64,000 bases of DNA from Vicinamibacterales bacterium. Its GTDB lineage: Bacteria > Acidobacteriota > Vicinamibacteria > Vicinamibacterales > CAVVIG01. Below the pieces are notes generated by a model. The model saw nothing but the letters and a program-made list of their open reading frames with translations. It was not told the origin of the DNA and did no database searches. Within the stretch, counting starts at the first letter, position 1. Every line of letters starts with the position of its first letter. Where the stretch lies: positions 7,382 to 71,381 of the forward strand of contig JBFXAT010000014.1 in NCBI GenBank assembly GCA_050183995.1, in the 5' to 3' direction. Below, piece after piece: positions 32,401 through 57,004 of this stretch. The position numbers were made by a program, and so were the translations under genes.

Positions 32401-32490
32401 GGCTGCCACGAGTGAGCGTCGATCCGGAGGCGTTGAGGGAGCGTGCATGCTCGACAGATCGTGGGCTGCGTCAGGGCAGCTGTGGCACAC
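29425..32490 (-). CDS. TonB-dependent receptor fused to an N-terminal multi-TM domain
   Basis: About 190-aa hydrophobic N-part (WNWKSSLLS...), then signal-like IVLFVAAGLLLPETAAAQ, carboxypeptidase-regulatory domain, plug (LPGVV, AEYGRFTSGV) and barrel; start may be 32448. Confidence 0.8.
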   Translation of the reverse strand: MCHSCPDAAHDLSSMHAPSTPPDRRSLVAAGRYLLAHPVEIVLERWNWKSSLLSCVFRGLIFFTVNIVAGLDAAVAAMLTEMAYRAIVTGAFASLTQWFRLVEPAWLGALTVMILVPGLNQGLSFLVHWLSGTAELALSLLVSFAVSAVSAWFNFSIMRQGVFIVEPGSASLWRDLATFPSAVANLFRASPRSSIVLFVAAGLLLPETAAAQTRAALTGTIEGTVSAGVSASGSPRRADASDDADAPATRLPNLVVELVAEPTRVIATTVTDDDGAFIFREVPPGRYAIRAQATETGRVESVAVDVEAGGVTPVALTLALTEQVIVASPAVPADNASPAQAVSGRLTERLPVADDVRALLPLLPGVVRGADGRIQMKGGQPTQGDYQVSGASVTDPSTGDFAFALPSGAVESVQVLADPFAAEYGRFTSGVTEIVTRSGGSRWQVTPNSFIPRVALRRDGLWGVNLRSFTPRVVAAGPLVADRLFLAQSAHYRFINTPLTGLDGDPTIGLRSLDSYTRLDTATIGHHQATAALAIFPRTLEHAGLDAFHPYEVTTTVRQRGFNAGLVHRWARGTDAAVESMVNVKKYDASIAAGGNAPMVLTPEGTRGHFFNDQARNTDSVQGRTTFTRAVERNNGRGHLFKAGVDFMWSGYTGRSTSRAIEIRRGDGTLARRIGFGPASRQDVSGKDLALFAQDRWRTSKTLTLELGLRADRDGVTTRIGWSPRAGLAYTPGGTGRTVLRGGAGVFYQRTPLNVGAFTSYEPRTIERFGPDGVTPLPGATTFAHERDALRMPSSVVWNAGFDRQIRPWLVLRVNHLRRTTSHDYIVQQTTGAQGSALRLDSTGRARYWEQEVTLRYLHDQRHDLTVSYVRSRAMADANAFDLFFGNARAPIVLPNEFTLSSIDVPNRLLAWGTIGIGAKWDVLPVFEIRNGFPFSAVDEEQDLVGSRNRAGRFPVMASLDVAIQRGMRIRGHRMRVGLRIFNALNRGNYRDVQTNVDASTYGGLFNPAQRGFGATFWIDP

Positions 32491-34036: not shown

Positions 34037-34037
34037 C

Positions 34038-35270: not shown

Positions 35271-35419
35271 TCACGCTATAGGCTAGTCGAGTCTCGGGGC
35301 CAGTCGAGCCTTGTCAGCGCCCGCGGGCTCGGTATGATGCCGCGAGACGTGTCGAGACGCCCGAATGCGAGGTGGCCCATCGTCCTGTCGTGGAGGCCGA
35401 GCGGCGCGCCGGTCGTGAG

Positions 35420-45552: not shown

Positions 45553-46422
45553 ATGCCCACCGCGGAAATCGATGGCTCCGGCCGCGATGTGCCGACCACC
45601 GTCATCCTGCCCCGCCGCGGCTGGTTCGACTGGCGCCTGCATCAACTCTGGACTTACCGGGACCTCGTCGCGCTCCTCATGTGGCGCGATTTCGTCTCGG
45701 AGTACAAGCAGACGCTGCTGGGCCCCGCGTGGCATCTCATCCGTCCGCTCGTCACCGCCGTCGTGTTCACCGCCGTGTTCAGCACGGTGGCGAAGCTGCC
45801 GACCGACGGCGTGCCGCCGTTCCTCTTCTACATGTGCGGCACGGTCGCCTGGACCTATTTCGCCAGCTGCGTCTTCGACATCAGCAAGACATTCGTGGCG
45901 AACTTCAATCTGATCGGCAAGGTGTACTTTCCCCGCCTGTCGATTCCGGTCTCGCTCATCGGCTCGAACCTGGTGGCGTTCGGGATCCAGCTCGCGATCT
46001 TCGTCGTGATCCTCGCGGCGTACATCGCATCGGGGAACCCCGTCCGCCCGTCCTGGTGGCTGATCGCCGTGCCGGGGCTCGTGCTCATGCTCGCATGCTA
46101 TGCCTTCGCCATCGGGATCATCCTGTCGGCGACCACCGCGCAGTACCGCGACTTGCTGTCGCTGGTCGTCTTCGGCTTGCAGTGGCTGATGTATCTCACC
46201 CCGGTGATCTATCCGGTCTCGGCCATTCCACAGCGGTTCCGGTGGCTCGCCGCCATCAACCCGCTGACGCCGATCTTCGAGGCCTTCCGGCGGGGGCTCC
46301 TCGGTGCCGGCAGCGTCAGCGCCGCCGGGCTCGCCGCGAGCGCCGCCGTGCTCGCGCTGCTCCTCGCCGCGGGGCTCGTCGCTTTCACACGCGTCGAGCA
46401 GAACGTCATCGACACGGTGTGA
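45553..46422 (+). CDS. wzm: ABC-2 polysaccharide exporter permease
   Basis: RDFVSEYKQTLLGPAW, KVYFPR, YRD, YLTPVIYP and NPL motifs. Confidence 0.92.
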   Translation: MPTAEIDGSGRDVPTTVILPRRGWFDWRLHQLWTYRDLVALLMWRDFVSEYKQTLLGPAWHLIRPLVTAVVFTAVFSTVAKLPTDGVPPFLFYMCGTVAWTYFASCVFDISKTFVANFNLIGKVYFPRLSIPVSLIGSNLVAFGIQLAIFVVILAAYIASGNPVRPSWWLIAVPGLVLMLACYAFAIGIILSATTAQYRDLLSLVVFGLQWLMYLTPVIYPVSAIPQRFRWLAAINPLTPIFEAFRRGLLGAGSVSAAGLAASAAVLALLLAAGLVAFTRVEQNVIDTV

Positions 46423-46424
46423 GC

Positions 46425-47711
46425 ATGCCGGTCGTCGTCTCCGTCGAACATGTCGGCAAGCAATACCGGCTCGGAACGGTCGGCGCGCAGAGCCTCCACG
46501 ATGCCGTCCGGCGCTGGTGGGCGCGAGAGCGGGGGAAGCCGGATCCGCTCGCGCCGATCGGCGACCGCCGTCCGCGCCGGACCGACGCCGGGTTCTGGGC
46601 GCTGGACGATGTCAGTCTGGAGGTGGAGCAGGGCGACGTCTTGGGCATCGTCGGCCGCAACGGATCGGGCAAGAGCACGTTGCTCAAGATCCTGTCGCAG
46701 GTGACCGCGCCGACGACCGGCCGGATCGTGATCCGAGGCCGGGTGGCGAGTCTTCTCGAAGTCGGCACCGGATTTCACCCGGATCTCACGGGCCGGGAGA
46801 ACGTCTTCCTCGGCGGAGCCATGATGGGCATGACGAAGGCGGAGATCCGGCGCAATCTCGACAGGATCGTCGCCTTCTCGGAGTGCGAGGCGTTCATCGA
46901 CACGCCGGTGAAGCGCTATTCGTCCGGCATGTACGTCCGCCTCGCGTTCGCCGTTGCCGCACACGTCGAGCCCGACATCCTGATCGTCGACGAAGTCCTC
47001 GCCGTCGGCGACGCGCCGTTCCAGCGGCGATGTCTCGCGCGCATGCGTGAGGCGTCGAGGGAAGGCAGAACGGTCGTCTTCGTGTCGCACAATCTGCCCA
47101 TCGTGCAGAGCCTGTGCACCCGCGCGGTGATGCTGGCCCATGGCCGTGTCGCCGCGATCGGTTCGGCGATCTCGGTGGTCAATGCTTACCTGTCGACGCA
47201 ATCGGGCGACGCGCTGCAGCTCGGACGTCCGGTCGACCTGTCGGCCGCGCCACGGTGGGGTGGCAGCGGCGACGCCCGCTTCGTGGAGGTGACGCCGTAC
47301 GATCCGGAGCGCCCGCACGCGGTCGGCGCGTTCCAGGGAGGAAACATCGGCTTCCGCCTGCGCATCGAAGGCGATCTCGCGGCGGCGCGCGCGGTCGCGG
47401 TTCAGATCGCCGACATGGACGACCGCCGTCTCGTGTACGCGAACAGCCTGGAGATCGGGCATCCCCTCGAGCTCGAGGCACCCGCCGTCGTGGAGCTGGA
47501 GCTCGTCGATCTCGCCTTGCGTCCGGGACGCTACAAGGTTGGGTACTGGCTCGGCGCCGCCGACGGGCGCGGGCTCGATCACGTGACCGACGCCACGATG
47601 CTCGACGTACTCGGGCACGCCGGCGTGCCGTGGACGTCGGCGCACGACGGCGGGGTCTTTCACTGCGACTTTCGCGTGCGCACCGGCCGGACCACACCCG
47701 CGCTCTCATGA
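46425..47711 (+). CDS. wzt: ABC polysaccharide exporter ATPase with Wzt C-terminal domain
   Basis: GRNGSGKST, YSSGMYVRLAFA and DEVLAVGD motifs plus a C-terminal beta-rich extension. Confidence 0.92.
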   Translation: MPVVVSVEHVGKQYRLGTVGAQSLHDAVRRWWARERGKPDPLAPIGDRRPRRTDAGFWALDDVSLEVEQGDVLGIVGRNGSGKSTLLKILSQVTAPTTGRIVIRGRVASLLEVGTGFHPDLTGRENVFLGGAMMGMTKAEIRRNLDRIVAFSECEAFIDTPVKRYSSGMYVRLAFAVAAHVEPDILIVDEVLAVGDAPFQRRCLARMREASREGRTVVFVSHNLPIVQSLCTRAVMLAHGRVAAIGSAISVVNAYLSTQSGDALQLGRPVDLSAAPRWGGSGDARFVEVTPYDPERPHAVGAFQGGNIGFRLRIEGDLAAARAVAVQIADMDDRRLVYANSLEIGHPLELEAPAVVELELVDLALRPGRYKVGYWLGAADGRGLDHVTDATMLDVLGHAGVPWTSAHDGGVFHCDFRVRTGRTTPALS

Positions 47712-47784
47712 CGTCCTTCGCCGCAGGCGGCACGGCTGACCACCACATGGCGCGAATCCGCACGTCGCCGGAGGCGCGCTGACG

Positions 47785-49608
47785 ATGTGCGGGATCGCGG
47801 GTCAGGTCGTCGGGGACGGCAGTGCGGTTGACGGCGATCTCGTGCGCCGCATGACCCGGGCGCTCGCGCACCGCGGGCCGGATGGCGAGTCGGTTCGCCT
47901 CGGACCGCAGCATGGGCTCGGACACCGGCGGCTCAGCCTCATCGACCTCGAAGGCGGCGGCCAGCCGCAGGCCAACGAAGACGGCACCGTCTGGGTCGTC
48001 TCCAACAGCGAGATCTACAACTACGTCGAGCTCCGCCGCGCTCTCGTTGCGCGCGGCCACCGGTTCGCCACCTCCAGCGACACGGAGGTGATCGTGCACC
48101 TGTACGAGGACCTGCAGGAGCGCTGCGTCGATCCGCTCGTCGGGATGTTCGCCTTCGCCGTGTGGGACATGCGGAGACGCGTCCTGCTGCTGGCGCGCGA
48201 CCGGTTCGGCGTCAAGCCGCTGTACTACAGCGTCCGCGGCTCCGAACTGCTCTTCGCCTCTGAGATGCGCGCGCTGCTCGAGAGCCCGACGCTCCGGCGC
48301 GATCTCGACTACGGCGCGCTGCACCAGTACTTCCTCCACCTCACCGTCCCGGAGCCGGCGAGCATCCTCGCCGACGTGCGCAAGCTTCCGGCGGGGCACG
48401 TGCTCGTCTGGCGGAACGGTCACGCGGATGAGCGCGCCTATTGGGACGTGACCGCGCCGACGCCGGAAGGCGACGCGCTCGATCACGCGCTCGATGACGC
48501 GTTCTACGACGCGCTCGATGAAGCCGGCGCGATCGAGCGGCTCGACGCGGCGCTCGCCGAGAGCGTGGACCTGAGTCTGCGCAGCGACGTGCCGGTCGGA
48601 CTGTTCCTGAGCGGAGGCGTGGATTCCAGCCTCCTCGCGTGGATGGCGAGCCGGAACGCGACGGCGCCGCTGCAGACCTTTTCGGCCGCGTTCGAGGATC
48701 ACCAGTCGGACGAACGGGCCTTCAGCCGGATGGTGGCGCGGGCGTGCGGCACCACGCATCACGAAGTCGAGATCACGCTGCGCGACGCGGTGGACATCCT
48801 TCCGGCGTTGTGTGGGGCGCTCGACGAGCCGTTCGCCGACTCGTCGGCTATTCCGACGTACCTCCTCGCCAGGGCGGCGCGCCGGCAGGTGAAAGCGGTC
48901 CTGACCGGCGAAGGGGCCGACGAGCTCTTTGGCGGCAGCCCGTGGCACGTCGGCGGCGCGCGCAGCGCCGATCCGTATGGCCTGCTGAATCCGCCCGCCA
49001 AGACGATCTTCACACCAGACGATTTGAAGGCGGTCTATTCGGACGATCTGTGGGACGCGGTGAGCCGTTGCGAGGCTCCCATGCCGCCCGGGCTCGACGC
49101 AAAGCTCGCCCGTTGCCCGGGCCGCTTCGAGCAGGGCCTCTGCGCCGACCTGCACGTGTACCTGCCCTCGGACCTGCTGATGAAGACCGATCGCATGACC
49201 ATGCTCGCATCGCTCGAGGCGCGGGTCCCGTTTCTCAACCATCCGTTCGCCGAGCTCGCGTGGCGGCTGCCGTCCCGGTTCAAAGTGAAGGACAGCGTCC
49301 GCAAGTACATACTGAAGAAGCTCGGCGCCGGCCGGCTCCCGGAGCCTGTTCTCAGCCGCCCGAAGCAGGGCTTCAGCATTCCCATGGATCTCTGGCTGTG
49401 GAGGCCGGGCGCCTTCCGCGACATGGTGCTCGACACGCTGGGCGACGCGCGCACGCGCGCGCGCGGACAGTTCGACATGACGGTCGTGGACACGATGGTG
49501 CGAGAGCACGATCGCATCGAGCGCTTTCACGGCTACCGGCTCTGGACGCTCTTCGCCTTCGAAACATGGCAGCGCACGTTCGTCGACGCGCCGGTGACGG
49601 CATCATGA
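47785..49608 (+). CDS. asnB: Asparagine synthase-like amidotransferase (glutamine-hydrolysing)
   Basis: N-terminal MCGIAG, HRGPD, SGGVDSS, GEGADELFGG and EARVPFL motifs. Confidence 0.93.
   Translation: MCGIAGQVVGDGSAVDGDLVRRMTRALAHRGPDGESVRLGPQHGLGHRRLSLIDLEGGGQPQANEDGTVWVVSNSEIYNYVELRRALVARGHRFATSSDTEVIVHLYEDLQERCVDPLVGMFAFAVWDMRRRVLLLARDRFGVKPLYYSVRGSELLFASEMRALLESPTLRRDLDYGALHQYFLHLTVPEPASILADVRKLPAGHVLVWRNGHADERAYWDVTAPTPEGDALDHALDDAFYDALDEAGAIERLDAALAESVDLSLRSDVPVGLFLSGGVDSSLLAWMASRNATAPLQTFSAAFEDHQSDERAFSRMVARACGTTHHEVEITLRDAVDILPALCGALDEPFADSSAIPTYLLARAARRQVKAVLTGEGADELFGGSPWHVGGARSADPYGLLNPPAKTIFTPDDLKAVYSDDLWDAVSRCEAPMPPGLDAKLARCPGRFEQGLCADLHVYLPSDLLMKTDRMTMLASLEARVPFLNHPFAELAWRLPSRFKVKDSVRKYILKKLGAGRLPEPVLSRPKQGFSIPMDLWLWRPGAFRDMVLDTLGDARTRARGQFDMTVVDTMVREHDRIERFHGYRLWTLFAFETWQRTFVDAPVTAS
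48472..48519 (+). repeat. In-frame 12-bp tandem repeat (4 imperfect copies) in asnB
   Basis: GACGCGCTCGAT CACGCGCTCGAT GACGCGTTCTAC GACGCGCTCGAT, encoding DALD-HALD-DAFY-DALD. Confidence 0.8.
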
Positions 49609-50360
49609 GCCTGGACGCGCGCGGCACTCCAGTGGTCAGCGTCATCATGCCGGCGCACAATGCCGGGCGTTACCTCCGCGACGCCGTCGAGAGCGTGCTC
49701 GCTCAGCGATTCGACGCGTTCGAGCTCCTCGTGACCGACGATGGATCGACCGACGACACCGGCTCGATCGTCGAGGAGTACGCGCGGCGCTCGACGGTCC
49801 GCGTCTTCCACAACAGCCGCAATCTCGGCGCGGCAGCGACGCGCAACCGGATGCTCGCCGATGCACGCGGGCGCTACGTCACGCCGGTCGATGCCGACGA
49901 TCTCCTGCTTCCCGGCAACCTGACGCGCCTCAGCACCTTTCTCGACGCGCATCCCGATGTCGGCGTGGTCTACGCCGACGTGCTGTCGCTCAGCGTCGCC
50001 ACCGACGACGAGCTGCTCGAGCCGCCTATCGTCTGCGGCGCCGACTGCGCGAAGACCTGGGATCTGCTCGAGAACGTCGTCAATCACGGGGGATCGATGA
50101 GCCGCAGGGACGTGCTCCTCGACGCCGGCGGATACGACGAAGACGTGTATTCGGTGGACGATTGGAGCCTCTGGCTGAAGGTGACCGAACGGACCCGCAT
50201 TCAGTACCTGCCTGGAGAGATCTATTACCTGTGGCGGCGCCACCCCGAGTCGATGACGCGCCGGGAGCCACGCTACCAGGAGAACGTCCGGCGCATCGTC
50301 ACCGCCGCCGCCACGCGCAGGGGCTTTTCGGCGCCGCCCCCCGTGGAGCCTCCCGCCTGA
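49605..50360 (+). CDS. GT2 glycosyltransferase
   Basis: VSVIMPAHN, DDGSTD and DADD motifs; ATGA overlap with asnB. Confidence 0.92.
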   Translation: MSLDARGTPVVSVIMPAHNAGRYLRDAVESVLAQRFDAFELLVTDDGSTDDTGSIVEEYARRSTVRVFHNSRNLGAAATRNRMLADARGRYVTPVDADDLLLPGNLTRLSTFLDAHPDVGVVYADVLSLSVATDDELLEPPIVCGADCAKTWDLLENVVNHGGSMSRRDVLLDAGGYDEDVYSVDDWSLWLKVTERTRIQYLPGEIYYLWRRHPESMTRREPRYQENVRRIVTAAATRRGFSAPPPVEPPA

Positions 50361-50379
50361 GGGCTCGCGCACGACAGCC

Positions 50380-51597
50380 ATGCGTCCGGCACTGAGCCTC
50401 TGTCTCGTCGTGAAGAACGAAGCGCTCCTGCTTCCGCACGCGCTCGAGGGGATGCGCGAGATCGCCGACGAGTGCATCGTGATCGACACCGGTTCCACCG
50501 ATGCCACCCGGGAGATCGCGCGGGCAGCCGGAGCCAAGGTGTTCGACTACGCCTGGGACGGCAATCTCGGCAGGGCGCGGAACGCGTATATCGAGCGGGC
50601 CGCCGGGTCGTGGATCCTCGTGCTGGACGGCGACGAGACGATCGCCGAGCGCGACCGTCCGAAGATTCGGGCGCTGATCGAATCGCGTGACGCGGGCGCG
50701 TACTCTCTCACGGTCCACGACTACAGCCGCGGCTTCGATCTGCTCCGCAACTGGCATCCCAATATCGGCGAATATCCGGACGAAGAGCGCCGATCCGGCT
50801 GTCCCGGCCGGGCGGAGTTCGACGTGGTCCGCCTGTTCCGGAACGCGCCGGGCGTCCGCTACGACGAAGGGGCGTCGACGCACACGAACCCGATCCGTTC
50901 GCTGCAGCGCCTCGGCTGGGCGATCCTCCCGTCGGGCGTAGTCGTTCATCACTTCCAGTGGCTCAAGGGAGGCGACCGCTTCATCGCGGGCAAACAGCTC
51001 GAGCGGCTCGACGCCGAGCGCCGCCAGGCGGATGCCGCCCCCGATGACTGCCGCGCGAACGTCAACGTGGGCCGCACGCTCTTCTCGCTGGGGCTCGACG
51101 AGGAAGCGCTCGCATACCTGACGCGAGCCGTGGCCGCCGATCCCGCGTCCGCGGAAGCCCGTTTCGCGCGCGGGCTGCTGCTCTCGCAGACCGATCGTCC
51201 CGACGCGGCGGCTGCCGATCTGCGCGAAGCGGTGGCGTTGAAGCCGGACTACGCGGACGCGTGGGCGGTGCTCGGAATCAGCTGCCACGCGATGGAGCAG
51301 TCGAGCGAGGCCGTGACGGCGCTCCGTCGCGCGCTCGAACATCACCCTGCCCATCCGGTCGCACACAATAGTCTGGGAGTGGTGCACCTCGACGCCGGCC
51401 GGCTGCAGGAAGCCGAGGTCCACTTCACGCGCGCGTTGGAGATTCTCCCTGCGCACGCGATGGCCGGCTGGAATCTCGCCTCGCTCTACGAGCAGCTCGG
51501 CGACGTCGAGCGCGCGCGCGGTGTCTGCCGGACCGCGCTCATGCACTGCCCGGACGATGAGCTGTTGAAACAGAAGCTGGCCGACCTGTCGGGATGA
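50380..51597 (+). CDS. GT2 glycosyltransferase with C-terminal TPR repeats
   Basis: LSLCLVVKNE, DTGSTD and WILVLDGDE, followed by TPRs (P..A.A...LG). Confidence 0.88.
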   Translation: MRPALSLCLVVKNEALLLPHALEGMREIADECIVIDTGSTDATREIARAAGAKVFDYAWDGNLGRARNAYIERAAGSWILVLDGDETIAERDRPKIRALIESRDAGAYSLTVHDYSRGFDLLRNWHPNIGEYPDEERRSGCPGRAEFDVVRLFRNAPGVRYDEGASTHTNPIRSLQRLGWAILPSGVVVHHFQWLKGGDRFIAGKQLERLDAERRQADAAPDDCRANVNVGRTLFSLGLDEEALAYLTRAVAADPASAEARFARGLLLSQTDRPDAAAADLREAVALKPDYADAWAVLGISCHAMEQSSEAVTALRRALEHHPAHPVAHNSLGVVHLDAGRLQEAEVHFTRALEILPAHAMAGWNLASLYEQLGDVERARGVCRTALMHCPDDELLKQKLADLSG

Positions 51598-51607
51598 CCA
51601 CTTCCTT

Positions 51608-51668
51608 CCGGGTGAGCGTGTCACCCGGATGAGCCTGTCATCCGGGTGACCCTGTCACTCCGGATGAC
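51608..51668. repeat. About 17-bp palindromic tandem repeat (3.5 copies) between convergent genes
   Basis: CCGGGTGAGCGTGTCA-C-CCGGATGAGCCTGTCA-T-CCGGGTGACCCTGTCA-CT-CCGGATGAC. Confidence 0.75.
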
Positions 51669-52432
51669 TGCGCGCCTTCAGCCGGCGATTCTCGGCGCCC
51701 GGCTGTTTCGAGCACGGTGCGAAGCCACGGAACGGCCGCTCGCATCGAATCGATGAGACGCGCGGTGTCTCCGTGCGCCGCGTCTTCCACGACCACGAGC
51801 TCGGCGGCGACGCCGCGCAGCCGGAGCAGCGCGACGGCCGCACGCGTCGGGGCCAACGGCACGATCGTGTCCGCGCGGCTGTGGACCGCGAAGACCGGCG
51901 CCGATCCCCAGGCTTCGACGATCGCCGCGTCCGGCGAGCCCGCGGCGACCGCCGCGGCGCAAAACATCTCGGGATGCCTGGCCACGAGCCCCCACGCGGC
52001 CGTGGCGCCGTCGCTCAGTCCAGCGGCGACGATCGCGTGCGGTGCGACGTCGCAGGTCCGTCGTATGACGTCCACGAGCTCCAGCACCGCGCTTTCGCTC
52101 GAGGGCTCGAACCAGTCGATGCCGGGGCAGTCCGGTGCGACGAGGATGGCGTCGAGGTCCGACAACGCCGGCGCGAAGAACCGGCGGAGATGAACGCCGC
52201 CGTGTCCGCGAGGCACACGTCCGCTGCCCCATCCCGGATGCAGGCAGAGAATCAGCAACTGTCCGGCAACCGGATCGACGCGCGTCGGCGTCTCGATCGC
52301 ATATCGCACCAGCTGGCCGCTGCTCGTTCGGAACGTCCGCGCCCTTGGATCCAGCCGCGGCGCGATGGACCCGACCAGTCGGACGGCCAGCCGAACGCAC
52401 AGACTGTTCAGGCGCACGCAGCGATTGCGCAT
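51638..52432 (-). CDS. Alpha/beta hydrolase (esterase or predicted peptidase)
   Basis: GLSDGA nucleophile elbow, HSRADTIVP (Asp) and AAHG (His). Confidence 0.7.
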   Translation of the reverse strand: MRNRCVRLNSLCVRLAVRLVGSIAPRLDPRARTFRTSSGQLVRYAIETPTRVDPVAGQLLILCLHPGWGSGRVPRGHGGVHLRRFFAPALSDLDAILVAPDCPGIDWFEPSSESAVLELVDVIRRTCDVAPHAIVAAGLSDGATAAWGLVARHPEMFCAAAVAAGSPDAAIVEAWGSAPVFAVHSRADTIVPLAPTRAAVALLRLRGVAAELVVVEDAAHGDTARLIDSMRAAVPWLRTVLETAGRRESPAEGAQSSGVTGSPG

Positions 52433-52491
52433 CACGGTGACGAGACGCGCGACGCCTCGCGTTGCGGGACTGCTCCTGCGGTGCGGCCTCG

Positions 52492-53613
52492 TCACGCGGC
52501 GTCGATGACCGCCTGATAGAGACGTTCGTATCGGGCGGCACACATCTGGATAGTGAACGCGTCTTCCACGCGCCGTCGTGCGGCCGCCCCGAGCGCGGCG
52601 GCCACGGCTGGCGATTCGAGCAGTCGAGCGATACGGTTGGCCAGATCGCTCGGCGACAGGGGCGGCACCAGGAACCCGGTTTCGCCGTCGATCACCAGCT
52701 CGGGGTTGCCGCCAGAGTCGGACGCGACGACCGGCTTGCCGAGGGCCATGGCCTCGAGGATGGCGTTGCTCGCGCCTTCGTTCACCGACGGCAGGACGAA
52801 CACGTCCACACCACGAAGGGTCTCCAGGCGGCCGTGGTCCAGATGGGTGAACCGCACGATGTCGGACAACTGGAGCGCGCCGACGAGTGTCCGAAGGGAC
52901 CGCGCATACTCGCGTGACTCGTCGGACGGATAACATCCGCCGAACACGTCGAAGCGTACGCCGGGAACGCGGCGGCGAACGATCTGCGCGGCACGGATGA
53001 AGTCCTCGTGCCGCTTCTGCGGAACCAGGTGCGCGACCATGGCGACTCGCGGCGGCTCCGGAGCACGGCTCGTCTCCGCATCGGCCGCGAGACCAGAGGC
53101 GCGGGAGAACTCGTCGAGGTCGAGCCCGTTGTGAATGACGTCCACGCCATGGCCGACGAGATCGAACTGGCGGGCGAGGAACCTGGAGCCGCACACGATC
53201 TTCCTAGACAGCATCGTCGCGAGAGAGAGAAACGTCTGCTGCTCGCGGCGCGTCTGCCGTTCGTGCACGACCGCGACATGCCCGCCGAATCTCCAGATGT
53301 GGGGCAGTCCTGCCTGGCCGGCCGCCAACCCGAGGACCGGCGCGAAATAGGAGGACTGCACCAGATCCACCTGAAGGCTCTCCAGCGCGGCGGCGAGCCC
53401 GCGCGCGTCGTCGGCTGCGTACGGGACGACGGCGGCCTGCACGCCGCGGGCCCGGAAGAGGGCATGTGTCGGCCCTTCTTCGGCCGACACGACGATCGGC
53501 TCGAATCGCGCCGGGTCGAGAACGGGGAGCAGACTCGCGAGGAAGCGCTCCGTGCCGCCGACGATGCGTGGGTTGATTTCGATGGCGATGCGCGCGCGGC
53601 CGTCGCGGCTCAC
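52492..53613 (-). CDS. GT4 glycosyltransferase
   Basis: GGTER, IHNGLD and EGASNAILEAMALGKPVV motifs; GTGA overlap with the kinase stop. Confidence 0.9.
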   Translation of the reverse strand: MSRDGRARIAIEINPRIVGGTERFLASLLPVLDPARFEPIVVSAEEGPTHALFRARGVQAAVVPYAADDARGLAAALESLQVDLVQSSYFAPVLGLAAGQAGLPHIWRFGGHVAVVHERQTRREQQTFLSLATMLSRKIVCGSRFLARQFDLVGHGVDVIHNGLDLDEFSRASGLAADAETSRAPEPPRVAMVAHLVPQKRHEDFIRAAQIVRRRVPGVRFDVFGGCYPSDESREYARSLRTLVGALQLSDIVRFTHLDHGRLETLRGVDVFVLPSVNEGASNAILEAMALGKPVVASDSGGNPELVIDGETGFLVPPLSPSDLANRIARLLESPAVAAALGAAARRRVEDAFTIQMCAARYERLYQAVIDAA

Positions 53614-54620
53614 TGCAGGTACGCCTCGATCTGTCGGGGAAGTGACGCGGCGTCGCGGCCGAGCCGGACGTCGAAACATTTCACCGTGCGTGCGAGCTCG
53701 ACGTAGGTATCGAGCCGGCGCTGCGCCGACGGCCCGTCGGTCACGAGCGTCGGGTACTCCTTGGGGCGGTGGGACAGGAATCGGCGCACCGCCTCGGCTG
53801 ACGGGAGCCGTTCGAGGCGGGTCTGTCCCTCATCACAAACGGTGGGAAAGAGGACGACGCGTGCGAGCGGCGCGGTGGCGGCTGGAGCGGCGCAGGTGGC
53901 TGGAGCAGCGTAGAGGCGTGACACCGGCACGGATCGCTTCAGGCCGTGACCACGCTGCACCAGCGGCGCCGACTTGAGGTGATCGAGGCGCGGGAACATG
54001 GCCAGCGTGTTGTCGGTGACGTGGATGTCGCCATCGACGCCGAGCGCGGCGATGCCGTCGGCCCGGTGCTCCAGAAAGATCTCGTCGTCGGCGACGAACG
54101 CAAATCCCGACTCGAGGAAGCGCAGGGTCGTCGTGGACTTGCCGCTCCCGGAGGGGCCGGCGAGCAGCACGGCGGCGCCGTCGAGCGACACGGCACCGCT
54201 ATGCCAGTGCACCAGACCGAGGCGCGCCAGCGTCATGAGCAGCAGCGGCTCGAACATGTAGTAATAGACGTCGTCGACCGTTTGATCGCACGCTTCGATG
54301 TGCACGTGCCACGGCCGCCGATGGAAGTATCCGGTGATGAGCCGTCGATCGTCGGCGATGACGAGCACGCGATCGTTGCTGAAGAACTGCCATTCGCGGA
54401 GCCGGCTGCCGGAGCGTTCGTGCAGGTGGAAGACGAGGTCGGGATCGAGCGGCCGCTCGCCGGGACCGGCTGTTGCGTCTCCGGGACCTGCTGCGAGAGG
54501 CGCGACGCGCACGAAGCGTTGCCAGCGCGCTTCGATGAACGCACCCAGCTGCTCGGCGCGGGGATCGCAAACGACGCTCACGTGCCTGGCGAAGAGGTCG
54601 TACTGCGTTGACTTCAACAC
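53610..54620 (-). CDS. HPr-kinase-related P-loop kinase (type found in lasso/PqqD clusters)
   Basis: HSGAV...LLAGPSGSGKSTT...FVADDE: His, Walker A and DD signature. Confidence 0.8.
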   Translation of the reverse strand: MLKSTQYDLFARHVSVVCDPRAEQLGAFIEARWQRFVRVAPLAAGPGDATAGPGERPLDPDLVFHLHERSGSRLREWQFFSNDRVLVIADDRRLITGYFHRRPWHVHIEACDQTVDDVYYYMFEPLLLMTLARLGLVHWHSGAVSLDGAAVLLAGPSGSGKSTTTLRFLESGFAFVADDEIFLEHRADGIAALGVDGDIHVTDNTLAMFPRLDHLKSAPLVQRGHGLKRSVPVSRLYAAPATCAAPAATAPLARVVLFPTVCDEGQTRLERLPSAEAVRRFLSHRPKEYPTLVTDGPSAQRRLDTYVELARTVKCFDVRLGRDAASLPRQIEAYLQ

Positions 54621-54704
54621 CCTCCGATCTTAAACTCGCTGCACATTTCACGACCGCGTCGTCGCGACACGGTCGGAGCCGCTGCCCTTTTTCGGACCTC
54701 GTGG

Positions 54705-55013
54705 ATGAGCGACATTCAGCCGGCCGCCGCAGCTCTCGGCGGAACCGCCCGTCTTCTTCGAAAACCGAATGTGCCGTGGAAGGAGCTCGATGGCGTTGCC
54801 ATCGTCCTCGTGCTCGGGAGCGGCGACTACTTCGAGCTCGACGAGCTGGGGCTGGCCATCTGGAAGATGCTGGATGGCACTCGCAGCCTGGCGGACTGTG
54901 CGGCAGAGCTGTCGTCAACCTATGACGCCGCTGCCGGCGTGCTGCGGGCGGACGTCGAGGAGTTCGCCGGGACGCTGCTCGATCTCCAACTGGTCGAGGT
55001 CGTTTCCGAGTAG
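54705..55013 (+). CDS. PqqD-family RiPP recognition element (lasso B1-like)
   Basis: ELDGVAIVL...YFELDELGLAIWKMLDG...YD...DVEEF...L PqqD pattern. Confidence 0.9.
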   Translation: MSDIQPAAAALGGTARLLRKPNVPWKELDGVAIVLVLGSGDYFELDELGLAIWKMLDGTRSLADCAAELSSTYDAAAGVLRADVEEFAGTLLDLQLVEVVSE

Positions 55014-55046
55014 CTGCGTGCGAGCGCACGCGCAGGATCACTGGTC

Positions 55047-55319
55047 ATGTCTGGAACATCCGCGCGAGAGACGACGGGAGCCGCGTCGACGGCGATGAGC
55101 GCAGGCCCTGAATCCCACGAGATCCCGCCGCCCGTGCCGGCAGCGTCGACTGAGCCTGGTCCGCCCGCGGTGTCGGCGTCCGAGTCCCAGGCGCAGCCGG
55201 CGCCGGAGCCGGAGCCGGCGACGGCTGGGCCAACCGGGTCGCCGGACGGGCTGAAGCGTTACAGCAAGCCCACGATCTCGCGCCACGGCAACCTGCGGAT
55301 GATGACGCAGCTCGAATAG
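55047..55319 (+). CDS. Putative RiPP-like precursor with lasso leader motif at the C-terminus
   Basis: Ends KRYSKPTISRHGNLRMMTQLE*, matching YxxPx(L/I)xxxGxxxxxT; starts 33 bp after the RRE gene on the same strand. Confidence 0.75.
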   Translation: MSGTSARETTGAASTAMSAGPESHEIPPPVPAASTEPGPPAVSASESQAQPAPEPEPATAGPTGSPDGLKRYSKPTISRHGNLRMMTQLE

Positions 55320-55337
55320 GCCCGTTCGGCGCGCGGC

Positions 55338-56480
55338 TCACGCCGTGTCGCCTTGACCATCCGGTGCAGAGGGCACGCCCGCGTCCGCGGGCGTGCGATG
55401 TCTCAACCTCGCCATGACGTATGTCGGCAGGTCCAGGCTGGAGGCCAGCAGGTACCGGTCCCTCAGGAAACGTGTGAATCCCACGGGCGACATGCGGCGC
55501 TGCCGGGCGCGTGCCCATCGGACGTACGCCATCCAGATCTGTGCCGCCTCCTGCAGGAGCGGCCGCTCGTTGCTGGAGATGGTCTGCCGGTCGAAGTTCA
55601 CGCGTTCGGCGCGCGCGATCGGGGTCGCGTCGAGCCGGCGCAGGGTCTCGTCGGAGATGGCCGCGCCGAATCGATCGCGGAGGTAGCGCAGCGCCGTGGC
55701 GGCGAACAGCGAAAGGCGGCAGCGCTCTGCCTGTTCGATCACGCGGTTCCAGTCGAGATCGGGACGGCGGTTCACGAGCTGCACCGCGTCCGCGATCCAC
55801 CGGAGGGCCGGCGTCGGGCTCCAGATCAAGCCGTGGACGCACGTGTGCAGGAGCTGGTCGGCCGGACACAGTACTGAAACGGACGTCTCGAACAGCGCGG
55901 CCCGTTCGGCGGCCTGCCAGAACGGATCGTCGATCGCCGGTCCGCTGTGATGGCCGAAGACGTTCCAGTGCAGATCGAGGTCGAAGCCGCTGTCGTGCGT
56001 GAACTGCTGTGCGTGCGGCTGGACGCCGACCGGAGTCCAGCCGCGTGAGGAGAGCCGATCGACGGCTCGAGGCGCCATCGCGTACGGGACGAGCAGGTCG
56101 GCGTCCGCCATGGGTCTGAGGCCCGGATCGCCGCCGTGCGCGACGAGCAGCGCCGCACCTTTCAGGAGCATCACGGACATGCCGGCGTCCTGGAGCGCCG
56201 CGACCGCCTGTTGCAGGTGATGGAGACGGAGCTGGTTGGCCTGCCACGTGTGGATGTATTCCGCGCGCAGCCGGTCGAGGAGCGGCTGCTCCAGCCGCAG
56301 ATCCGCGCGGCGTTGATACAGCAGCGGCAGGAGGCGCTTCGAACCGGCGTCGAGGCAATCGAGATCGGCGCCGGCCGACCATGCGCGCCACGCTGCCCGG
56401 GCGCGCGCGGCGTCGAGGAGGATCGCCTCGAGCAGCTGTTCCTGTTGCGTCGTCGTGCGCGCGATGCTGGTGTGGCTCAC
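55338..56480 (-). CDS. Nucleotidyltransferase family protein (NTP_transf_5-like)
   Basis: LLKGAAL, RPMADADLLV, DLDLHW, LLHTCVH and RWIAD motifs; start estimated. Confidence 0.85.
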   Translation of the reverse strand: MSHTSIARTTTQQEQLLEAILLDAARARAAWRAWSAGADLDCLDAGSKRLLPLLYQRRADLRLEQPLLDRLRAEYIHTWQANQLRLHHLQQAVAALQDAGMSVMLLKGAALLVAHGGDPGLRPMADADLLVPYAMAPRAVDRLSSRGWTPVGVQPHAQQFTHDSGFDLDLHWNVFGHHSGPAIDDPFWQAAERAALFETSVSVLCPADQLLHTCVHGLIWSPTPALRWIADAVQLVNRRPDLDWNRVIEQAERCRLSLFAATALRYLRDRFGAAISDETLRRLDATPIARAERVNFDRQTISSNERPLLQEAAQIWMAYVRWARARQRRMSPVGFTRFLRDRYLLASSLDLPTYVMARLRHRTPADAGVPSAPDGQGDTA

Positions 56481-56494
56481 GGTGGGGGTGTCCG

Positions 56495-56583
56495 AGCGAG
56501 CGACGAAACGGGACGAGCGAACGAACAAACGAACGAACGAACGAAGGGACGACCGACCGACCGACTGACCGACCGAGCAAACG
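56495..56583. repeat. Degenerate tetranucleotide simple repeats (CGAA)n/(CCGA)n
   Basis: gagcgaacgaacaaacgaacgaacgaacgaagggacgaccgaccgaccgactgaccgaccgagc, just upstream of the nucleotidyltransferase. Confidence 0.8.
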
Positions 56584-56868
56584 CCCGACGGTGCCGCCGC
56601 CGCATGTCGTTCGAGCGGGCGTTCTGCGGCAATTATGGACGAAGGCGCCGCGGACTGCGCGAGGGACCGGGCCGGCGATTGCTGCACGCGGGATTGGGGA
56701 GCGTGTGGGCGCTGCCGTTCGCGCGGCCCTTTGCGGGCGGGGGAGCGGCTGTCCTGGCGGGCGGCGGCGTAGCCGGCTACGCCGATCTGTCCAACCCCGA
56801 CATGGTCGCCGAGACCCGTTACCCCATCTCCATCCGGAAGACCGCGAGCTGGCTCTCCAGATCGACCT

Positions 56869-56993
56869 GTCCAACTTCGCGATCTCGCTGTCGCGTGAGG
56901 GTCCGCTTCTCATCGCGCGAGCAGAGCCTGCGGCGGACTCAACGGCGGTGGTATCGTGAGGCCGCGCAGCGCGGCTCAGCGCCGACGTTGACC
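56869..56993 (+). mobile_element. Degenerate attC-like site 1
   Basis: L' GCTCAGC, 6-bp spacer, R' GTTGACC 11 bp before the next ATG; possible R'' GTCCAAC at 56869. Confidence 0.5.
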
Positions 56994-57004
56994 GATTGAG
57001 GCAC

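What the first reader, a model, noticed from the sequence alone, without database searches (positions are those of the whole stretch)
45553..56480. RiPP-like RRE/kinase/nucleotidyltransferase module joined to a Wzm-Wzt glycan locus: candidate peptide-scaffolded glycoconjugate pathway
Seen: contiguous wzm, wzt, asnB, GT2 and GT2-TPR (+); then hydrolase, GT4 and HPr-like kinase (-, kinase and GT4 coupled by a GTGA overlap); then divergent PqqD/RRE, a 90-aa peptide with a lasso-leader motif, and an NTP_transf_5 protein. Established: RRE + HPr-like kinase + NTP_transf_5 accompany phosphorylated or glycosylated lasso peptides (paeninodin, pseudomycoidin), and those clusters need a transglutaminase-like B2 protease and a cyclisable core. 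Here there is no B2 in the window, no lasso core, AsnB keeps its N-terminal Cys glutaminase domain, and the exporter is a polysaccharide-type ABC-2 rather than a peptide exporter. Inference: lasso-like recognition machinery may be repurposed so that an RRE-bound peptide is phosphorylated or nucleotidylated and then glycan-extended and exported, or acts as a carrier or regulator of surface-glycan synthesis.
Basis: partly seen in the sequence, partly recalled or inferred. Interest (0 to 1): 0.9.

Follow-up and report, generated by a model that had tools for sequence, protein, structure and literature searches.

The report
Coreless lasso-like peptide glycan cassette
An Acidobacteriota genome carries a conserved 11-gene cassette in which peptide-recognition machinery borrowed from lasso-peptide pathways, with a peptide that is almost all recognition motif and has no lasso core, is hard-wired to sugar-adding enzymes and a polysaccharide-type exporter.

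Summary
Window 45553-56480 encodes wzm, wzt, AsnB (catalytic Cys kept), GT2, GT2-TPR, an esterase-type hydrolase, GT4, an HprK-like kinase, a PqqD/RRE, a 90-aa peptide and an NTP_transf_5 protein. One correction: the NTP_transf_5 gene lies on the minus strand.

The peptide ends YSKPTISRHGNLRMMTQLE*, a lasso/LPP-type leader motif with three residues after the conserved Thr.

It is not a decayed lasso cluster.
- The same 11 genes, reordered and between unrelated flanks, recur in another Acidobacteriota family (G027). That genome has no B2 hit at all.
- Part of the set recurs on a metagenome contig.
- All three peptides end in the identical RHGNLRMMTQLE* at the same stop.

The closest known system is the LPP family (Bacillota, Nat Commun 2026): RRE, HprK-like kinase and NTP-transferase without cyclase. 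This cassette differs in five ways. It has no SpI peptidase, its motif sits at the C-terminus, its exporter is ABC-2, its glycosyltransferases are conserved with it, and it is in another phylum.

Paralogous modules in the same genome fuse the RRE to a leader-like tail, and those fused forms belong to large undescribed families.

All the chemistry is inferred. Verdict: new variant of a known kind.

The parts
45553..46422 (+). wzm-like ABC-2 permease (289 aa)
   Evidence: PF01061 4.5e-22. Best NCBIfam names are Wzm/RfbD and KpsM, below cut-off. The G027 counterpart is only 29% identical.
46425..47711 (+). wzt-like ABC ATPase with a ~170-aa C-terminal extension (428 aa)
   Evidence: ABC_tran 4.1e-21; Wzt_C 18.6 bits, below the 30.4 cut-off. 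TagH/Wzt names in NCBIfam. 45% identical to the G027 copy.
47785..49608 (+). AsnB-type glutamine-dependent amidotransferase (607 aa), N-terminal Cys kept
   Evidence: Starts MCGIAG. TIGR01536 469 bits, above its 267 cut-off. The lasso cyclase model scores 215 bits, below its 525 cut-off.
49605..50360 (+). GT2 glycosyltransferase (251 aa)
   Evidence: PF00535 3.3e-31. 64% identical in G027.
50380..51597 (+). GT2-TPR glycosyltransferase (405 aa), GmaR/SunS-like GT domain
   Evidence: Pfam GT2 plus TPR. Residues 1-105 match PDB 22ao GmaR at 6.3e-23 and SunS 7msp at 6.3e-07.
51638..52441 (-). carboxylesterase-type alpha/beta hydrolase (about 267 aa; start 52441 GTG or 52432 ATG)
   Evidence: Weak Peptidase_S9/DLH/Esterase hits. 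PDB LC-Est1C 6e-09 and feruloyl esterase. Atlas clusters are carboxylesterase/DLH. Conserved in G027 and L064.
52492..53613 (-). GT4 glycosyltransferase (373 aa from GTG 53613)
   Evidence: PF00534 4.1e-32. GTGA overlap with the kinase stop. 51-60% identical in G027 and L064.
53610..54620 (-). HprK-like P-loop kinase (336 aa)
   Evidence: Hpr_kinase_C 30.1 bits; HprK_rel_B and HprK_rel_A hits, all below cut-off. Walker A is invariant in the alignment with G027.
54608..54636 (+). sigma-70-like promoter match upstream of the RRE gene
   Evidence: TTGACT-17-TAAACT. One match found against 0.1 expected in shuffles. This is a consensus match only.
54705..55013 (+). discrete PqqD-type RRE (102 aa)
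   Evidence: PF05402 9.3e-15. Lasso PqqD chaperone models hit below cut-off. 52% identical to the L064 copy.
55047..55319 (+). 90-aa peptide: variable Pro/Ala/Ser/Thr/Glu-rich N-terminal part plus a conserved C-terminal leader-like motif
   Evidence: Local GC3 0.87-0.88. Orthologues in G027 and L064. Weak lasso_cyano leader hit, E 0.0097.
55260..55319 (+). motif YSKPTISRHGNLRMMTQLE plus stop
   Evidence: The last 12 residues and the stop position are identical in 3 of 3 loci. The stop codons differ (TAG, TGA, TAG) and the downstream DNA is unrelated.
55338..56480 (-). NTP_transf_5 nucleotidyltransferase-fold protein (380 aa from GTG 56480; alternative starts at 56528 and 56687)
   Evidence: PF14907 4.9e-46. 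G108, D126, D128 and D169 are invariant in 5 of 5 aligned homologues. The model has a generic Pol-beta NTase fold.

Best explanation
This is a discrete, horizontally mobile 11-gene cassette of Acidobacteriota.

What it contains:
- A recognition pair derived from lasso/LPP pathways: a PqqD-type RRE and a peptide whose only conserved part is a C-terminal YxxPxIxxHGxLxxxTQLE-COOH motif.
- The HprK-like kinase and the NTP_transf_5 enzyme that define phosphorylated lasso peptides and the linear polyphosphorylated peptides (LPPs).
- Three glycosyltransferases fixed to that set, one with a GmaR/SunS-like (protein- or peptide-glycosylating) GT2 domain plus TPR repeats.
- An AsnB amidotransferase, a carboxylesterase and a Wzm/Wzt-type ABC-2 exporter.

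Most likely mechanism:
1. The RRE docks the peptide through YxxPxI.
2. This presents the invariant C-terminal dozen residues, or the Ser/Thr-rich N-terminal part, to the kinase and the NTP_transf_5 enzyme. They install a phosphate or a phospho-linked group.
3. The glycosyltransferases add sugars.
4. The ABC-2 pump exports a linear phospho-glycosylated peptide.

Shown: gene content, the conservation and boundaries of the cassette, conservation of the coreless peptide, and absence of B2 and cyclase.
Inferred: RRE-peptide binding (weak model support only), every chemical step, and what is exported.
For: Gene identities:
- Established.

The cassette is a unit:
- All 11 genes recur in G027, which belongs to another family of the same order (record title 'uncultured Acidobacteriota').
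- The order there differs (asnB-GT2-GT2TPR-wzm-wzt-NT-hyd-GT4-kin-RRE-pep), and none of the window's other called genes has an orthologue-level match in the G027 locus.
- wzm (29%) and NT (26-34%) are far more diverged than the rest (45-64%). These functions were kept even where the gene differs.
- Metagenome contig L064 holds GT2TPR-hyd-GT4-kin-(PhyH)-RRE-pep-NT.
- An orthologue-level kinase match was found in 1 of 40 relatives and in 0 of 11 genomes of the same genus, so the distribution is patchy.

The peptide:
- In 3 of 3 loci it ends RHGNLRMMTQLE* at the same stop.
- The first 16 motif positions match true lasso precursors of this genome and order.
- The spacing matches the LPP motif Y1-P4-V6-H9-I12-T16-S19 (PMC13381572, section 6).

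No lasso machinery:
- The genome's single B2 lies on contig C4, inside a real lasso cluster.
- G027 has 0 B2 hits.
- AsnB scores as asparagine synthase, not as a lasso cyclase.

RRE-peptide complex:
- Verdict 'weak support': score 0.51, best of 3 controls 0.02.
- The mark was reached by 58 of 80 solved complexes and 2 of 110 mismatched pairs. At 0.60 or under it was reached by only 7 of those 80 and by both mismatches that passed.
- The runs agree in at least 94% of contacts, and the partner's pLDDT is at least 56.
- Lasso B1-leader complexes are solved, so this pass may come from memory.

Peptide-type glycosyltransferase:
- The GT2 domain matches GmaR at 6.3e-23 and SunS at 6.3e-07.

Recurrence in the same genome:
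- Further kinase + NT modules have GTs and/or wzm next to them: C23, C8, C60 and C73.

Recurrence elsewhere:
- Contexts in G515, G032, G452, G456 and G467.
- In 81 genomes of the order, 32 of 92 NTP_transf_5 hits have a PqqD but no B2 within 15 kb, and 29 have both.

Precedent:
- LppK phosphorylates its RRE-bound peptide, and LPP clusters lie inside capsule loci (PMC13381572, sections 6, 7, 12).
- L064 adds a PhyH dioxygenase. I recall this enzyme type as a common peptide-tailoring one.
Against: - No experiment and no RNA data bear on this locus.
- The three residues after the conserved Thr (QLE) hold no Ser. LppK did not accept Thr or Tyr at its site (PMC13381572, section 7), so the C-terminus may not be a kinase substrate.
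- The N-terminal part resembles the disordered linkers of the fused RRE-tail proteins, so it may be a vestigial linker and not a core.
- Natural RRE-tail fusions fit an adaptor role at least as well as a substrate role.
- There is no leader peptidase in the cassette. The hydrolase looks like an esterase.
- Only 3 instances of this exact type are known, and one of them (L064) was found with a pattern that demanded the C-terminus.
- G027 carries frameshifts in asnB, RRE and NT. These are either long-read errors or decay.
- Outside this genome, wzm/wzt lie near B2-less modules in only 3 of 25 loci.
Confidence: 0.45

Rival explanations
1. Adaptor or regulator. The peptide is not modified. Bound to the RRE, it forms a constitutive subunit that activates or targets the kinase and the NTP_transf_5 enzyme toward a glycan made by the GTs. 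An example would be a terminal phosphate or phospho-linked cap that the C-terminal domain of Wzt reads before export. I recall this logic from WbdD/Wzt in E. coli O9a.
For: - In paralogous modules the leader-like motif is covalently fused to the RRE (C8, C23). Such fusions form large families.
- The type I fusion folds with the tail packed on the RRE: mean pLDDT 93.2, with a strand at residues 112-117.
- The distance from Tyr to the C-terminus is fixed: exactly 20 residues in 45 of the best 150 representatives.
- There is no Ser after the Thr in the window's peptide.
- Wzt has a C-terminal extension.
- The TPR part of GT2-TPR resembles TPR proteins such as PEX5 at 1e-13. I recall that these bind C-terminal peptides.
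Against: - In the only characterised relative the kinase acts on the peptide itself (PMC13381572, section 7).
- Type I fusions travel with an SpI-like peptidase in 3 of 3 contexts seen (C8, G515, G452). That implies cleavage of the tail, which is what happens to a substrate.
- The Wzt_C match is below cut-off.
Confidence: 0.25
2. Scaffold or mini-core pathway. The chemistry happens on the last few residues (T-Q-L-E-COOH). A small modified fragment is then released, by the esterase or another hydrolase, glycosylated and exported. From recall, mycofactocin, PQQ and the pearlins are likewise built on the C-terminus of an RRE-bound peptide.
For: - The C-terminus and the stop position are invariant.
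- A terminal Glu is shared with type I tails, where 43 of 45 end in E.
- E90 sits where the LPP phospho-Ser sits, at position 19 of the motif (PMC13381572, section 6).
- An AsnB-type, carboxylate-activating enzyme is in the cassette.
- Type I tails are paired with an SpI-like peptidase.
Against: - I know of no precedent for HprK-like kinases or NTP_transf_5 acting on a carboxylate.
- AsnB paralogues are common in this genome (at least 7 loci) and are typical of glycan loci.
- AsnB was not seen in the annotated parts of the C8 and C23 modules.
Confidence: 0.12
3. Mere neighbours. An LPP-like peptide module happens to sit inside an ordinary ABC-transporter-dependent surface-glycan locus, with no shared product.
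For: - LPP and paeninodin clusters of Bacilli are also embedded in capsule loci without a proven link (PMC13381572, sections 6, 12).
- The cassette's glycan genes are of common types.
- wzm/wzt are near only 3 of 25 B2-less modules elsewhere.
Against: - The same 11 genes move together into unrelated flanks, with an internal rearrangement.
- The kinase and GT4 genes overlap by GTGA.
- None of the 11 genes has a recognisable polyprenyl-phosphate initiating transferase, Wzx/Wzy or outer-membrane export domain.
- GTs recur next to 9 of 25 such modules elsewhere and next to at least 4 paralogous modules here.
Confidence: 0.1
4. Decayed lasso cluster. A nonsense mutation truncated the core, and B2 and the cyclase were lost.
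For: The motif is a perfect lasso leader up to T-Q. The genome also has a real lasso cluster with kinase and NT on C4.
Against: - The truncated form is identical in three organisms whose RRE and kinase are only about 50% identical. The stop codons differ and the downstream DNA is unrelated.
- The catalytic motifs of the kinase and the NT are kept.
- G027 has no B2 anywhere.
Confidence: 0.03

Closest known systems
Linear polyphosphorylated peptides (LPP; Popov et al., Nat Commun 2026, PMC13381572; sections 6, 7, 12 and search passages read)
   Same: [quoted passage not shown]
- A Tyr-type YxxP leader motif with the same spacing: Y1, P4, aliphatic 6, H9, aliphatic 12, T16.
- Clusters embedded among polysaccharide genes, with a patchy, HGT-like distribution.
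   Different: - LPPs are described as restricted to Bacillota.
- They have an SpI-like leader peptidase and an MsbA-like exporter.
- Their motif is N-terminal, followed by a long variable core whose Ser3 is polyphosphorylated.
- Here there is no SpI and the exporter is ABC-2.
- Here the motif is at the extreme C-terminus with only Q-L-E after the Thr, and there is no Ser at that place.
- Here the GTs, AsnB and esterase are part of the conserved unit.
Phosphorylated or phosphoglycosylated lasso peptides (paeninodin, pseudomycoidin; review PMC8498205, passages read)
   Same: - The RRE, HprK-like kinase and NTP_transf_5 set, and the leader motif.
- In pseudomycoidin the NTase puts one or two hexoses on the phosphate.
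   Different: No B2, no cyclase, no cyclisable core and no C-terminal Ser.
NCBIfam 'HPr-rel-A system' (TIGR04352 HprK-related kinase A with TIGR04353 PqqD family chaperone) and HprK-related kinase B (TIGR04355)
   Same: A curated but uncharacterised pairing of a PqqD-type chaperone with an HprK-related kinase outside lasso pathways.
   Different: The window's kinase scores 30-40 bits against cut-offs of 200, and the RRE does not reach these models. It is not a member.
ABC-transporter-dependent glycan export (Wzm/Wzt, TagGH, KpsMT)
   Same: An ABC-2 permease plus an ATPase with a C-terminal extension, next to cytoplasmic GTs.
   Different: All hits are below the equivalog cut-offs. Wzt_C is below cut-off. 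There is no initiating transferase and no outer-membrane component in the cassette.
RRE-dependent pathways that work on a very short C-terminal core (mycofactocin, PQQ) and follower-type recognition (triculamin, bioRxiv 10.64898/2026.07.03.736388, abstract read)
   Same: The recognition sequence and the chemistry sit at the C-terminal end of a small peptide bound by a PqqD-type domain. From recall, mycofactocin is later glycosylated by a GT2.
   Different: There is no radical-SAM enzyme here, and the enzyme set is different. The resemblance to mycofactocin and PQQ is recalled, not tested.

Membership tests
Lasso peptide gene cluster | Precursor with a YxxPxLx3Gx5T leader motif | tested here: met
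   YSKPTISRHGNLRMMT at residues 72-87. Weak lasso_cyano leader hits, E 0.01-0.03, in 3 of 3 orthologues.
Lasso peptide gene cluster | Cyclisable core (about 14 or more residues, with Asp/Glu at position 7-9) after the leader | tested here: not met
   Only Q-L-E follows the Thr. The stop is conserved in 3 of 3 loci, and the NT gene ends 18 nt downstream on the other strand.
Lasso peptide gene cluster | B2 transglutaminase-like leader peptidase (PF13471) | tested here: not met
   The own genome has 1 hit, on contig C4. G027 has 0 hits at 91% completeness. No B2 hit was found in the L064 contig or the G027 locus with the queries used; Pfam was run on only some genes of those loci.
Lasso peptide gene cluster | Lasso cyclase (AsnB homologue without a working glutaminase) | tested here: not met
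   AsnB starts MCGIAG, has GATase_7 at 3.7e-44, and passes TIGR01536 (469 bits, above 267). The lasso cyclase model scores 215 bits, below 525.
LPP family (PMC13381572) | Discrete RRE, HprK-like kinase and NTP-transferase together, without a cyclase | tested here: met
   Conserved in G027 and L064.
LPP family (PMC13381572) | SpI-like (archaeal-type signal peptidase I) leader peptidase | tested here: not met
   tblastn with the genome's own SpI-like protein (C8) found nothing in the window, L064 or the G027 locus. No peptidase_S26 hit appears among the cassette's genes. It IS present in the paralogous C8 module (TIGR02228 1.6e-10).
LPP family (PMC13381572) | MsbA-like exporter | tested here: not met
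   The exporter is an ABC-2 permease plus a separate ATPase.
LPP family (PMC13381572) | Precursor with an N-terminal leader motif, a long C-terminal core and a phosphorylated Ser three residues after the cleavage-site Thr | tested here: not met
   The motif is C-terminal. Position 19 is Glu and is the last residue.
LPP family (PMC13381572) | Polyphosphorylation of the peptide by the kinase | not testable with these tools
   Needs expression and mass spectrometry.
Wzm/Wzt ABC-transporter-dependent glycan pathway | ABC-2 permease plus ATPase of the Wzm/Wzt/TagGH/KpsMT type | tested here: met
   PF01061 and PF00005. The best NCBIfam names are of this type but below the equivalog cut-offs.
Wzm/Wzt ABC-transporter-dependent glycan pathway | Wzt C-terminal carbohydrate-binding domain | tested here: inconclusive
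   PF14524 18.6 bits against a cut-off of 30.4, over residues 280-398.
Wzm/Wzt ABC-transporter-dependent glycan pathway | Lipid-carrier initiation enzyme in the locus | tested here: not met
   None of the 11 genes has such a domain. This enzyme can be encoded elsewhere, so the point does not exclude membership.
Protein/peptide glycosyltransferases of the GmaR/SunS type | GT2 catalytic domain of that subfamily joined to a helical-repeat domain | tested here: met
   GmaR 6.3e-23 and SunS 6.3e-07 for residues 1-105, plus TPR repeats. The acceptor was not tested. That GmaR glycosylates flagellin is recalled.

The most novel reading that the evidence does not exclude
The phosphorylated peptide (or, in the fused paralogues, the RRE's own tail) is a protein primer for glycan assembly. 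It would be a soluble stand-in for undecaprenyl phosphate. The kinase would make the phosphate, the NTP_transf_5 enzyme would add the first phospho-linked sugar, the GTs would extend the chain, and the Wzm/Wzt pump would export the peptide-anchored glycan. This would explain why a self-contained mobile cassette carries no lipid-carrier initiating enzyme.
Probability: 0.12. Interest if true: 0.9.

Novelty: new variant of a known kind. Interest (0 to 1): 0.65.

Why it matters
The LPP paper left two questions open: what the NTP-transferase does, and why these clusters sit in polysaccharide loci. This cassette bears on both.

- It is a compact, transferable unit in which the RRE/kinase/NTase set is fixed to three GTs, one of them of a protein-glycosylating type, and to a glycan-type exporter. 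The peptide is reduced to little more than the recognition motif.
- That makes the proposed link between RiPP-style recognition and glycan chemistry directly testable with 11 genes.
- It also extends the LPP-like logic to another phylum.
- Large families of PqqD proteins carry their own leader-like tail. My searches of the paper library found no description of them.

Tried and rejected
Searches for more copies of the peptide:
- The protein database returned only the window's own 74-aa form among 11 candidates. The peptide is rarely called as a gene, so protein databases say little about its range.
- A 2-row peptide profile searched over 401 genomes of the phylum gave only low-complexity noise. 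203 genomes 'matched' at E<=1, and none was convincing apart from G000. One candidate, in G230, was read and set aside as unconvincing.
- The search for related loci with the kinase alignment used two strict patterns. It found only G027 and one unrelated weak hit, so it is not exhaustive.
- The metagenome pattern scan demanded GNLRMMTQLE plus a stop. The C-terminus of L064 is therefore ascertained, not independent.

Other tests that settled nothing:
- A stop-codon readthrough fusion of RRE and peptide was considered. The two ORFs are in frame in 2 of 3 loci, but with different stop codons (TAG, TGA), and they are out of frame in G027. No case can be made.
- RRE affiliation by BLASTP: the window's RRE is about 30-38% identical to fused type I, fused type II and plain PqqD proteins alike. 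No tree was built.
- The NTP_transf_5 model gave only generic nucleotidyltransferase neighbours: MenT1, LnuA, ANT(2''), CCA-adding enzymes, and FKRP at E about 0.01. This does not discriminate between mechanisms.
- There was no PDB sequence match for the NT and only weak HprK matches for the kinase.

Limits of the census:
- Among the 25 'PqqD but no B2' loci fetched, 4 hold a cyclase-like gene and 2 hold true lasso precursors. The figure of 32 of 92 therefore overstates the non-lasso modules.
- tblastn with this genome's proteins is an insensitive annotator, so 'kin 16, GT 9, wzm/wzt 3, SpI 1 of 25' are lower bounds.
- One fragment row (the second piece of a split hit in G450) was left out of the count.

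Expression: no RNA holder is listed.

Tools and material I could not use:
Genomic contexts of the database proteins P0003-P0275 could not be seen.
- Supplementary data of PMC13381572 (BGC lists, domain co-occurrence) were not available. They may hold non-Bacillota or ABC-2-linked members.

Full report
**What is there.** The window is G000:C14:7382-71381, about 67% G+C. A codon-position GC plot and translations resolve the region into 11 genes, which Pfam and NCBIfam identify.

| Gene | Coordinates, strand | Main evidence |
|---|---|---|
| wzm (ABC-2 permease) | 45553-46422 + | ABC2_membrane |
| wzt (ABC ATPase) | 46425-47711 + | about 170-aa C-terminal extension; Wzt_C only 18.6 bits, cut-off 30.4 |
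| AsnB-type amidotransferase | 47785-49608 + | starts MCGIAG; passes the asparagine synthase model and fails the lasso cyclase model |
| GT2 | 49605-50360 + | Glycos_transf_2 |
| GT2-TPR | 50380-51597 + | GT2 plus TPR repeats |
| alpha/beta hydrolase | 51638-52441 - | carboxylesterase-like |
| GT4 | 52492-53613 - | Glycos_transf_1 |
| HprK-like P-loop kinase | 53610-54620 - | stop overlaps the GT4 start as GTGA |
| PqqD-type RRE | 54705-55013 + | PF05402 |
| 90-aa peptide ORF | 55047-55319 + | coding-like GC3 |
| NTP_transf_5 | 55338-56480 - | minus strand, convergent with the peptide |

A sigma-70-like match lies in the divergent kinase/RRE spacer.

**The peptide.** It ends YSKPTISRHGNLRMMTQLE*.
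- Up to T-Q this is the lasso leader motif. It aligns position by position with a real lasso precursor of the same genome (C4...YRTPKLRSYGDIRVLTQKGSSRAGSID...). It also aligns with five precursors found beside 30 PqqD loci of the same order.
- It matches the spacing of the LPP leader motif YxxPxVLxHQxIxFETxxS (PMC13381572, section 6). In that comparison the terminal Glu falls where LPP has its phosphorylated Ser.
- A whole-genome regex gave 5 hits. Only the two hits next to PqqD genes lie in small ORFs.

**Is it a decayed lasso cluster? No.**
- A search of 40 related genomes with the kinase found one orthologue, in G027. That genome is in a different family of the same order, and its record is titled an uncultured Acidobacteriota MAG.
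- The G027 locus holds all 11 genes in a different order.
- The G027 peptide ends ...AYRKPSITRHGNLRMMTQLE*.
- A pattern scan of metagenome contigs found a third locus, L064: GT2TPR-hyd-GT4-kin-PhyH-RRE-pep-NT. Its peptide ends ...YAKPTIARHGNLRMMTQLE*. That C-terminus was demanded by the pattern, so it is not independent evidence.
- In all three loci the last 12 residues and the stop position are identical, while the stop codons and the downstream DNA differ. The RRE and the kinase are only about 50% identical.
- The N-terminal 38-71 residues are variable and rich in Pro, Ala, Ser, Thr and Glu.
- G027 (91% complete) has no Transglut_core3 hit anywhere. The window's genome has one, inside a complete lasso cluster on contig C4.
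- G027 shows frameshifts in asnB, RRE and NT. I take these as likely long-read errors but cannot prove it.

**The wider family in this genome.** The genome has 12 NTP_transf_5 hits, 11 of them over the family cut-off, 7 PqqD hits and many kinase paralogues. Besides the lasso cluster on C4 there are these modules:

| Contig | Genes seen |
|---|---|
| C23 | NT, GT2, a double GT2, PqqD fused to a tail, kinase-like, GT2-GT2-TPR, wzm, GT2 |
| C8 | NT, PqqD fused to a tail, SpI-like peptidase, kinase, GT4, CAP59-like GT |
| C60 | MFS, NT, kinase-like, GT1, wzm, wzt |
| C73 | PqqD, P-loop kinase-like, NT, VanZ, wzm |
| C7, C11, C27 | smaller sets |

Kinase + NT therefore sits within 10 kb of wzm at four loci of this genome.

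**RREs that carry their own leader.**
- The C8 protein ends ...YLAPALQAYGDLDTLILSGE*. Its four database relatives (48-99% identical) all end YG[DN]LDTLILSGE*.
- A profile of these was searched against 1.84 billion representatives. It gave 6089 hits at E<=0.001 and 172 at E<=1e-10.
- Of the best 150, 48 have a [YFW]xxP motif 24 or fewer residues from the end, 75 have it 25-45 residues from the end, 14 have it further away, and 13 have none.
- 45 have exactly 20 residues from the aromatic residue to the end, and 34 of those end in LSGE. I call these type I.
- The C23 protein belongs to a second family of 131 clusters. Its tail is [YF]xxPx[LVF]ERYxDMQELLLLDPIHEVxxxGWP, and members occur in MAGs named Acidobacteriota, Pyrinomonadaceae and Caldilineales. 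I call these type II.
- The type I protein folds with mean pLDDT 93.2. The tail has high confidence, forms a strand at residues 112-117, and has a flexible last six residues.
- Its nearest solved structures are the lasso B1 proteins TbiB1 and 6jx3, which were solved with their leaders.
- The first 12 motif positions of the window's peptide fit the type I consensus, and its N-terminal part resembles the fusions' linkers. I read the window's peptide as a detached 'linker plus tail'.
- Contexts elsewhere agree. G515 and G452 have NT, RRE-tail I, SpI, kinase and GT4. G032, G456 and G467 have RRE-tail II with kinase, GT2s and NT, and G467 also has wzm/wzt.

**How common are B2-less modules?** In 81 genomes of the order, 92 NTP_transf_5 hits (E<=1e-15) split as follows within 15 kb:
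- 29 with both PqqD and B2;
- 32 with PqqD only (26 of these outside G000, in 21 genomes);
- 3 with B2 only;
- 28 with neither.

I fetched 24 of the 26 'PqqD only' loci and added G032:C31 to make 25.
- tblastn with this genome's proteins found a kinase in 16, a GT in 9, wzm/wzt in 3, a cyclase-like gene in 4 and SpI in 1.
- Two of the loci hold true lasso precursors, three hold type II tails, and none holds a C14-type coreless peptide.

B2-less RRE/NT modules are therefore common. The GT link is frequent, the ABC-2 link is occasional, and the exact cassette of the window is rare (three instances).

**What is known.**
- Paeninodin-type kinases phosphorylate the C-terminal Ser of lasso precursors. 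The pseudomycoidin NTase adds one or two hexoses to that phosphate (review PMC8498205, passages).
- In May 2026 Popov et al. (PMC13381572; sections 6, 7 and 12 read) described LPPs. [quoted passage not shown]
- LPP precursors have an N-terminal YxxP motif, are cleaved after T-1, and are polyphosphorylated on Ser3.
- The LPP NTP-transferase was inactive in the heterologous host, 'perhaps needing a partner outside the core cluster'.
- The clusters are embedded in capsule loci, are said to be restricted to Bacillota, and their role is unknown.
- The window's cassette shares the RRE/kinase/NTase core and the motif. It fails four LPP features: SpI, MsbA, the N-terminal position of the motif, and the Ser site.
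- The C8 module is closer to LPP because it has the SpI-like gene.

**Mechanism.** Gene content, conservation and the absence of lasso enzymes are shown. The rest is inferred.
- RRE-peptide binding has weak model support: score 0.51 against a best control of 0.02. The tool's own calibration warns that passes at or below 0.60 are more often wrong than right unless the guess was likely beforehand, and that solved look-alikes may drive the score.
- The GT2 domain of GT2-TPR is closest to GmaR (6.3e-23) and SunS (6.3e-07). From recall, both glycosylate proteins or peptides. This favours a peptide acceptor.
- The kinase and the NT keep their catalytic motifs.

My best reading, at about 0.45, is a linear LPP-like peptide that is phospho-modified, glycosylated and exported by the ABC-2 pump.

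Three observations keep an adaptor role alive (0.25): the lack of a Ser after the Thr, the natural RRE-tail fusions, and the fixed distance to a terminal Glu. They also keep a mini-core or scaffold role alive (0.12). Chance adjacency (0.10) and decay (0.03) are poorly supported.

**Novelty.** This is a new variant of a known kind. It is an LPP-like, lasso-derived module in a new phylum, with a C-terminal 'coreless' motif, a conserved GT/AsnB/esterase/ABC-2 complement, and sister families in which the RRE carries its own leader. Six full-text searches found no paper describing these features. The supplements of the LPP paper could not be read.

Noticed in passing
G000:C4:19600-32500 (locus L072): A complete lasso cluster in the same genome. 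It holds NTP_transf_5, RRE, a precursor (...YRTPKLRSYGDIRVLTQKGSSRAGSIDSSGKADKTNG), an HprK-like kinase, a cyclase-like AsnB homologue and the genome's only B2. The coreless cassette therefore coexists with a real phosphorylated-lasso-type pathway that uses a near-identical leader motif. This raises the cross-talk question studied for LPP and paeninodin.
   Followed up: partly
G000:C8:2475-7501 (locus L065): An LPP-like module whose PqqD protein carries its own tail, YLAPALQAYGDLDTLILSGE*. It is followed by an SpI-like peptidase, a kinase, a GT4 and a CAP59-like GT. The same order occurs in G515 and G452. 45 of the best 150 profile hits worldwide have exactly this 20-residue tail.
   Followed up: partly
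G000:C23:35600-50000 (locus L067): A PqqD protein with a conserved 35-45-aa tail, [YF]xxPx[LVF]ERYxDMQELLLLDPIHEVxxxGWP. The family has 131 clusters, all annotated only as 'PqqD family protein'. Here it sits next to a kinase-like gene, a GT2-GT2-TPR and wzm.
   Followed up: partly
window 55011-55049; L064:4301-4345: The RRE and peptide ORFs are in the same frame, separated by one stop codon and 11-13 sense codons, in the window (TAG) and in L064 (TGA). They are not in frame in G027. This fits an origin by splitting of an RRE-tail fusion. It is not evidence of readthrough.
   Followed up: partly
L064:3074-3871 (-): The metagenome version of the cassette has an extra PhyH-type Fe/2OG dioxygenase gene (1.3e-22) between the kinase and the RRE.
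   Followed up: no
L030 (G027:C3:285000-304999): asnB, RRE and NTP_transf_5 of the orthologous cassette each align in two frames, so each has a frameshift. This is either an indel-prone assembly or early decay of that copy.
   Followed up: no
whole genome G000: 12 NTP_transf_5 hits (11 over the family cut-off) against 1 B2 hit in a 4.39-Mb genome. There are also at least 7 AsnB paralogues at 34-40% identity and 9 further wzm-like paralogues besides the window's own.
   Followed up: partly
window 32471-36682: A second set of glycan genes (two GT4 genes facing each other) about 10 kb upstream of the cassette. It is separated from the cassette by an amidase-domain protein, a TonB-type outer-membrane barrel and DUF4256.
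   Followed up: no
L141, L142 (G463:C55, G443:C22): In another genus a lasso-like set (kinase, cyclase-like gene, RRE, NT) lies beside GT2-TPR-like, GT2, AsnB (4e-50 to 4e-55) and GT4 genes. This is a possible intermediate between lasso clusters and the window's cassette. No precursor was found with my regex.
   Followed up: partly
window 56480-56996: About 500 nt without a convincing gene between the NT start and the next gene. It contains a short TCGT-type repeat run just upstream of the alternative TTG start at 56528.
   Followed up: no
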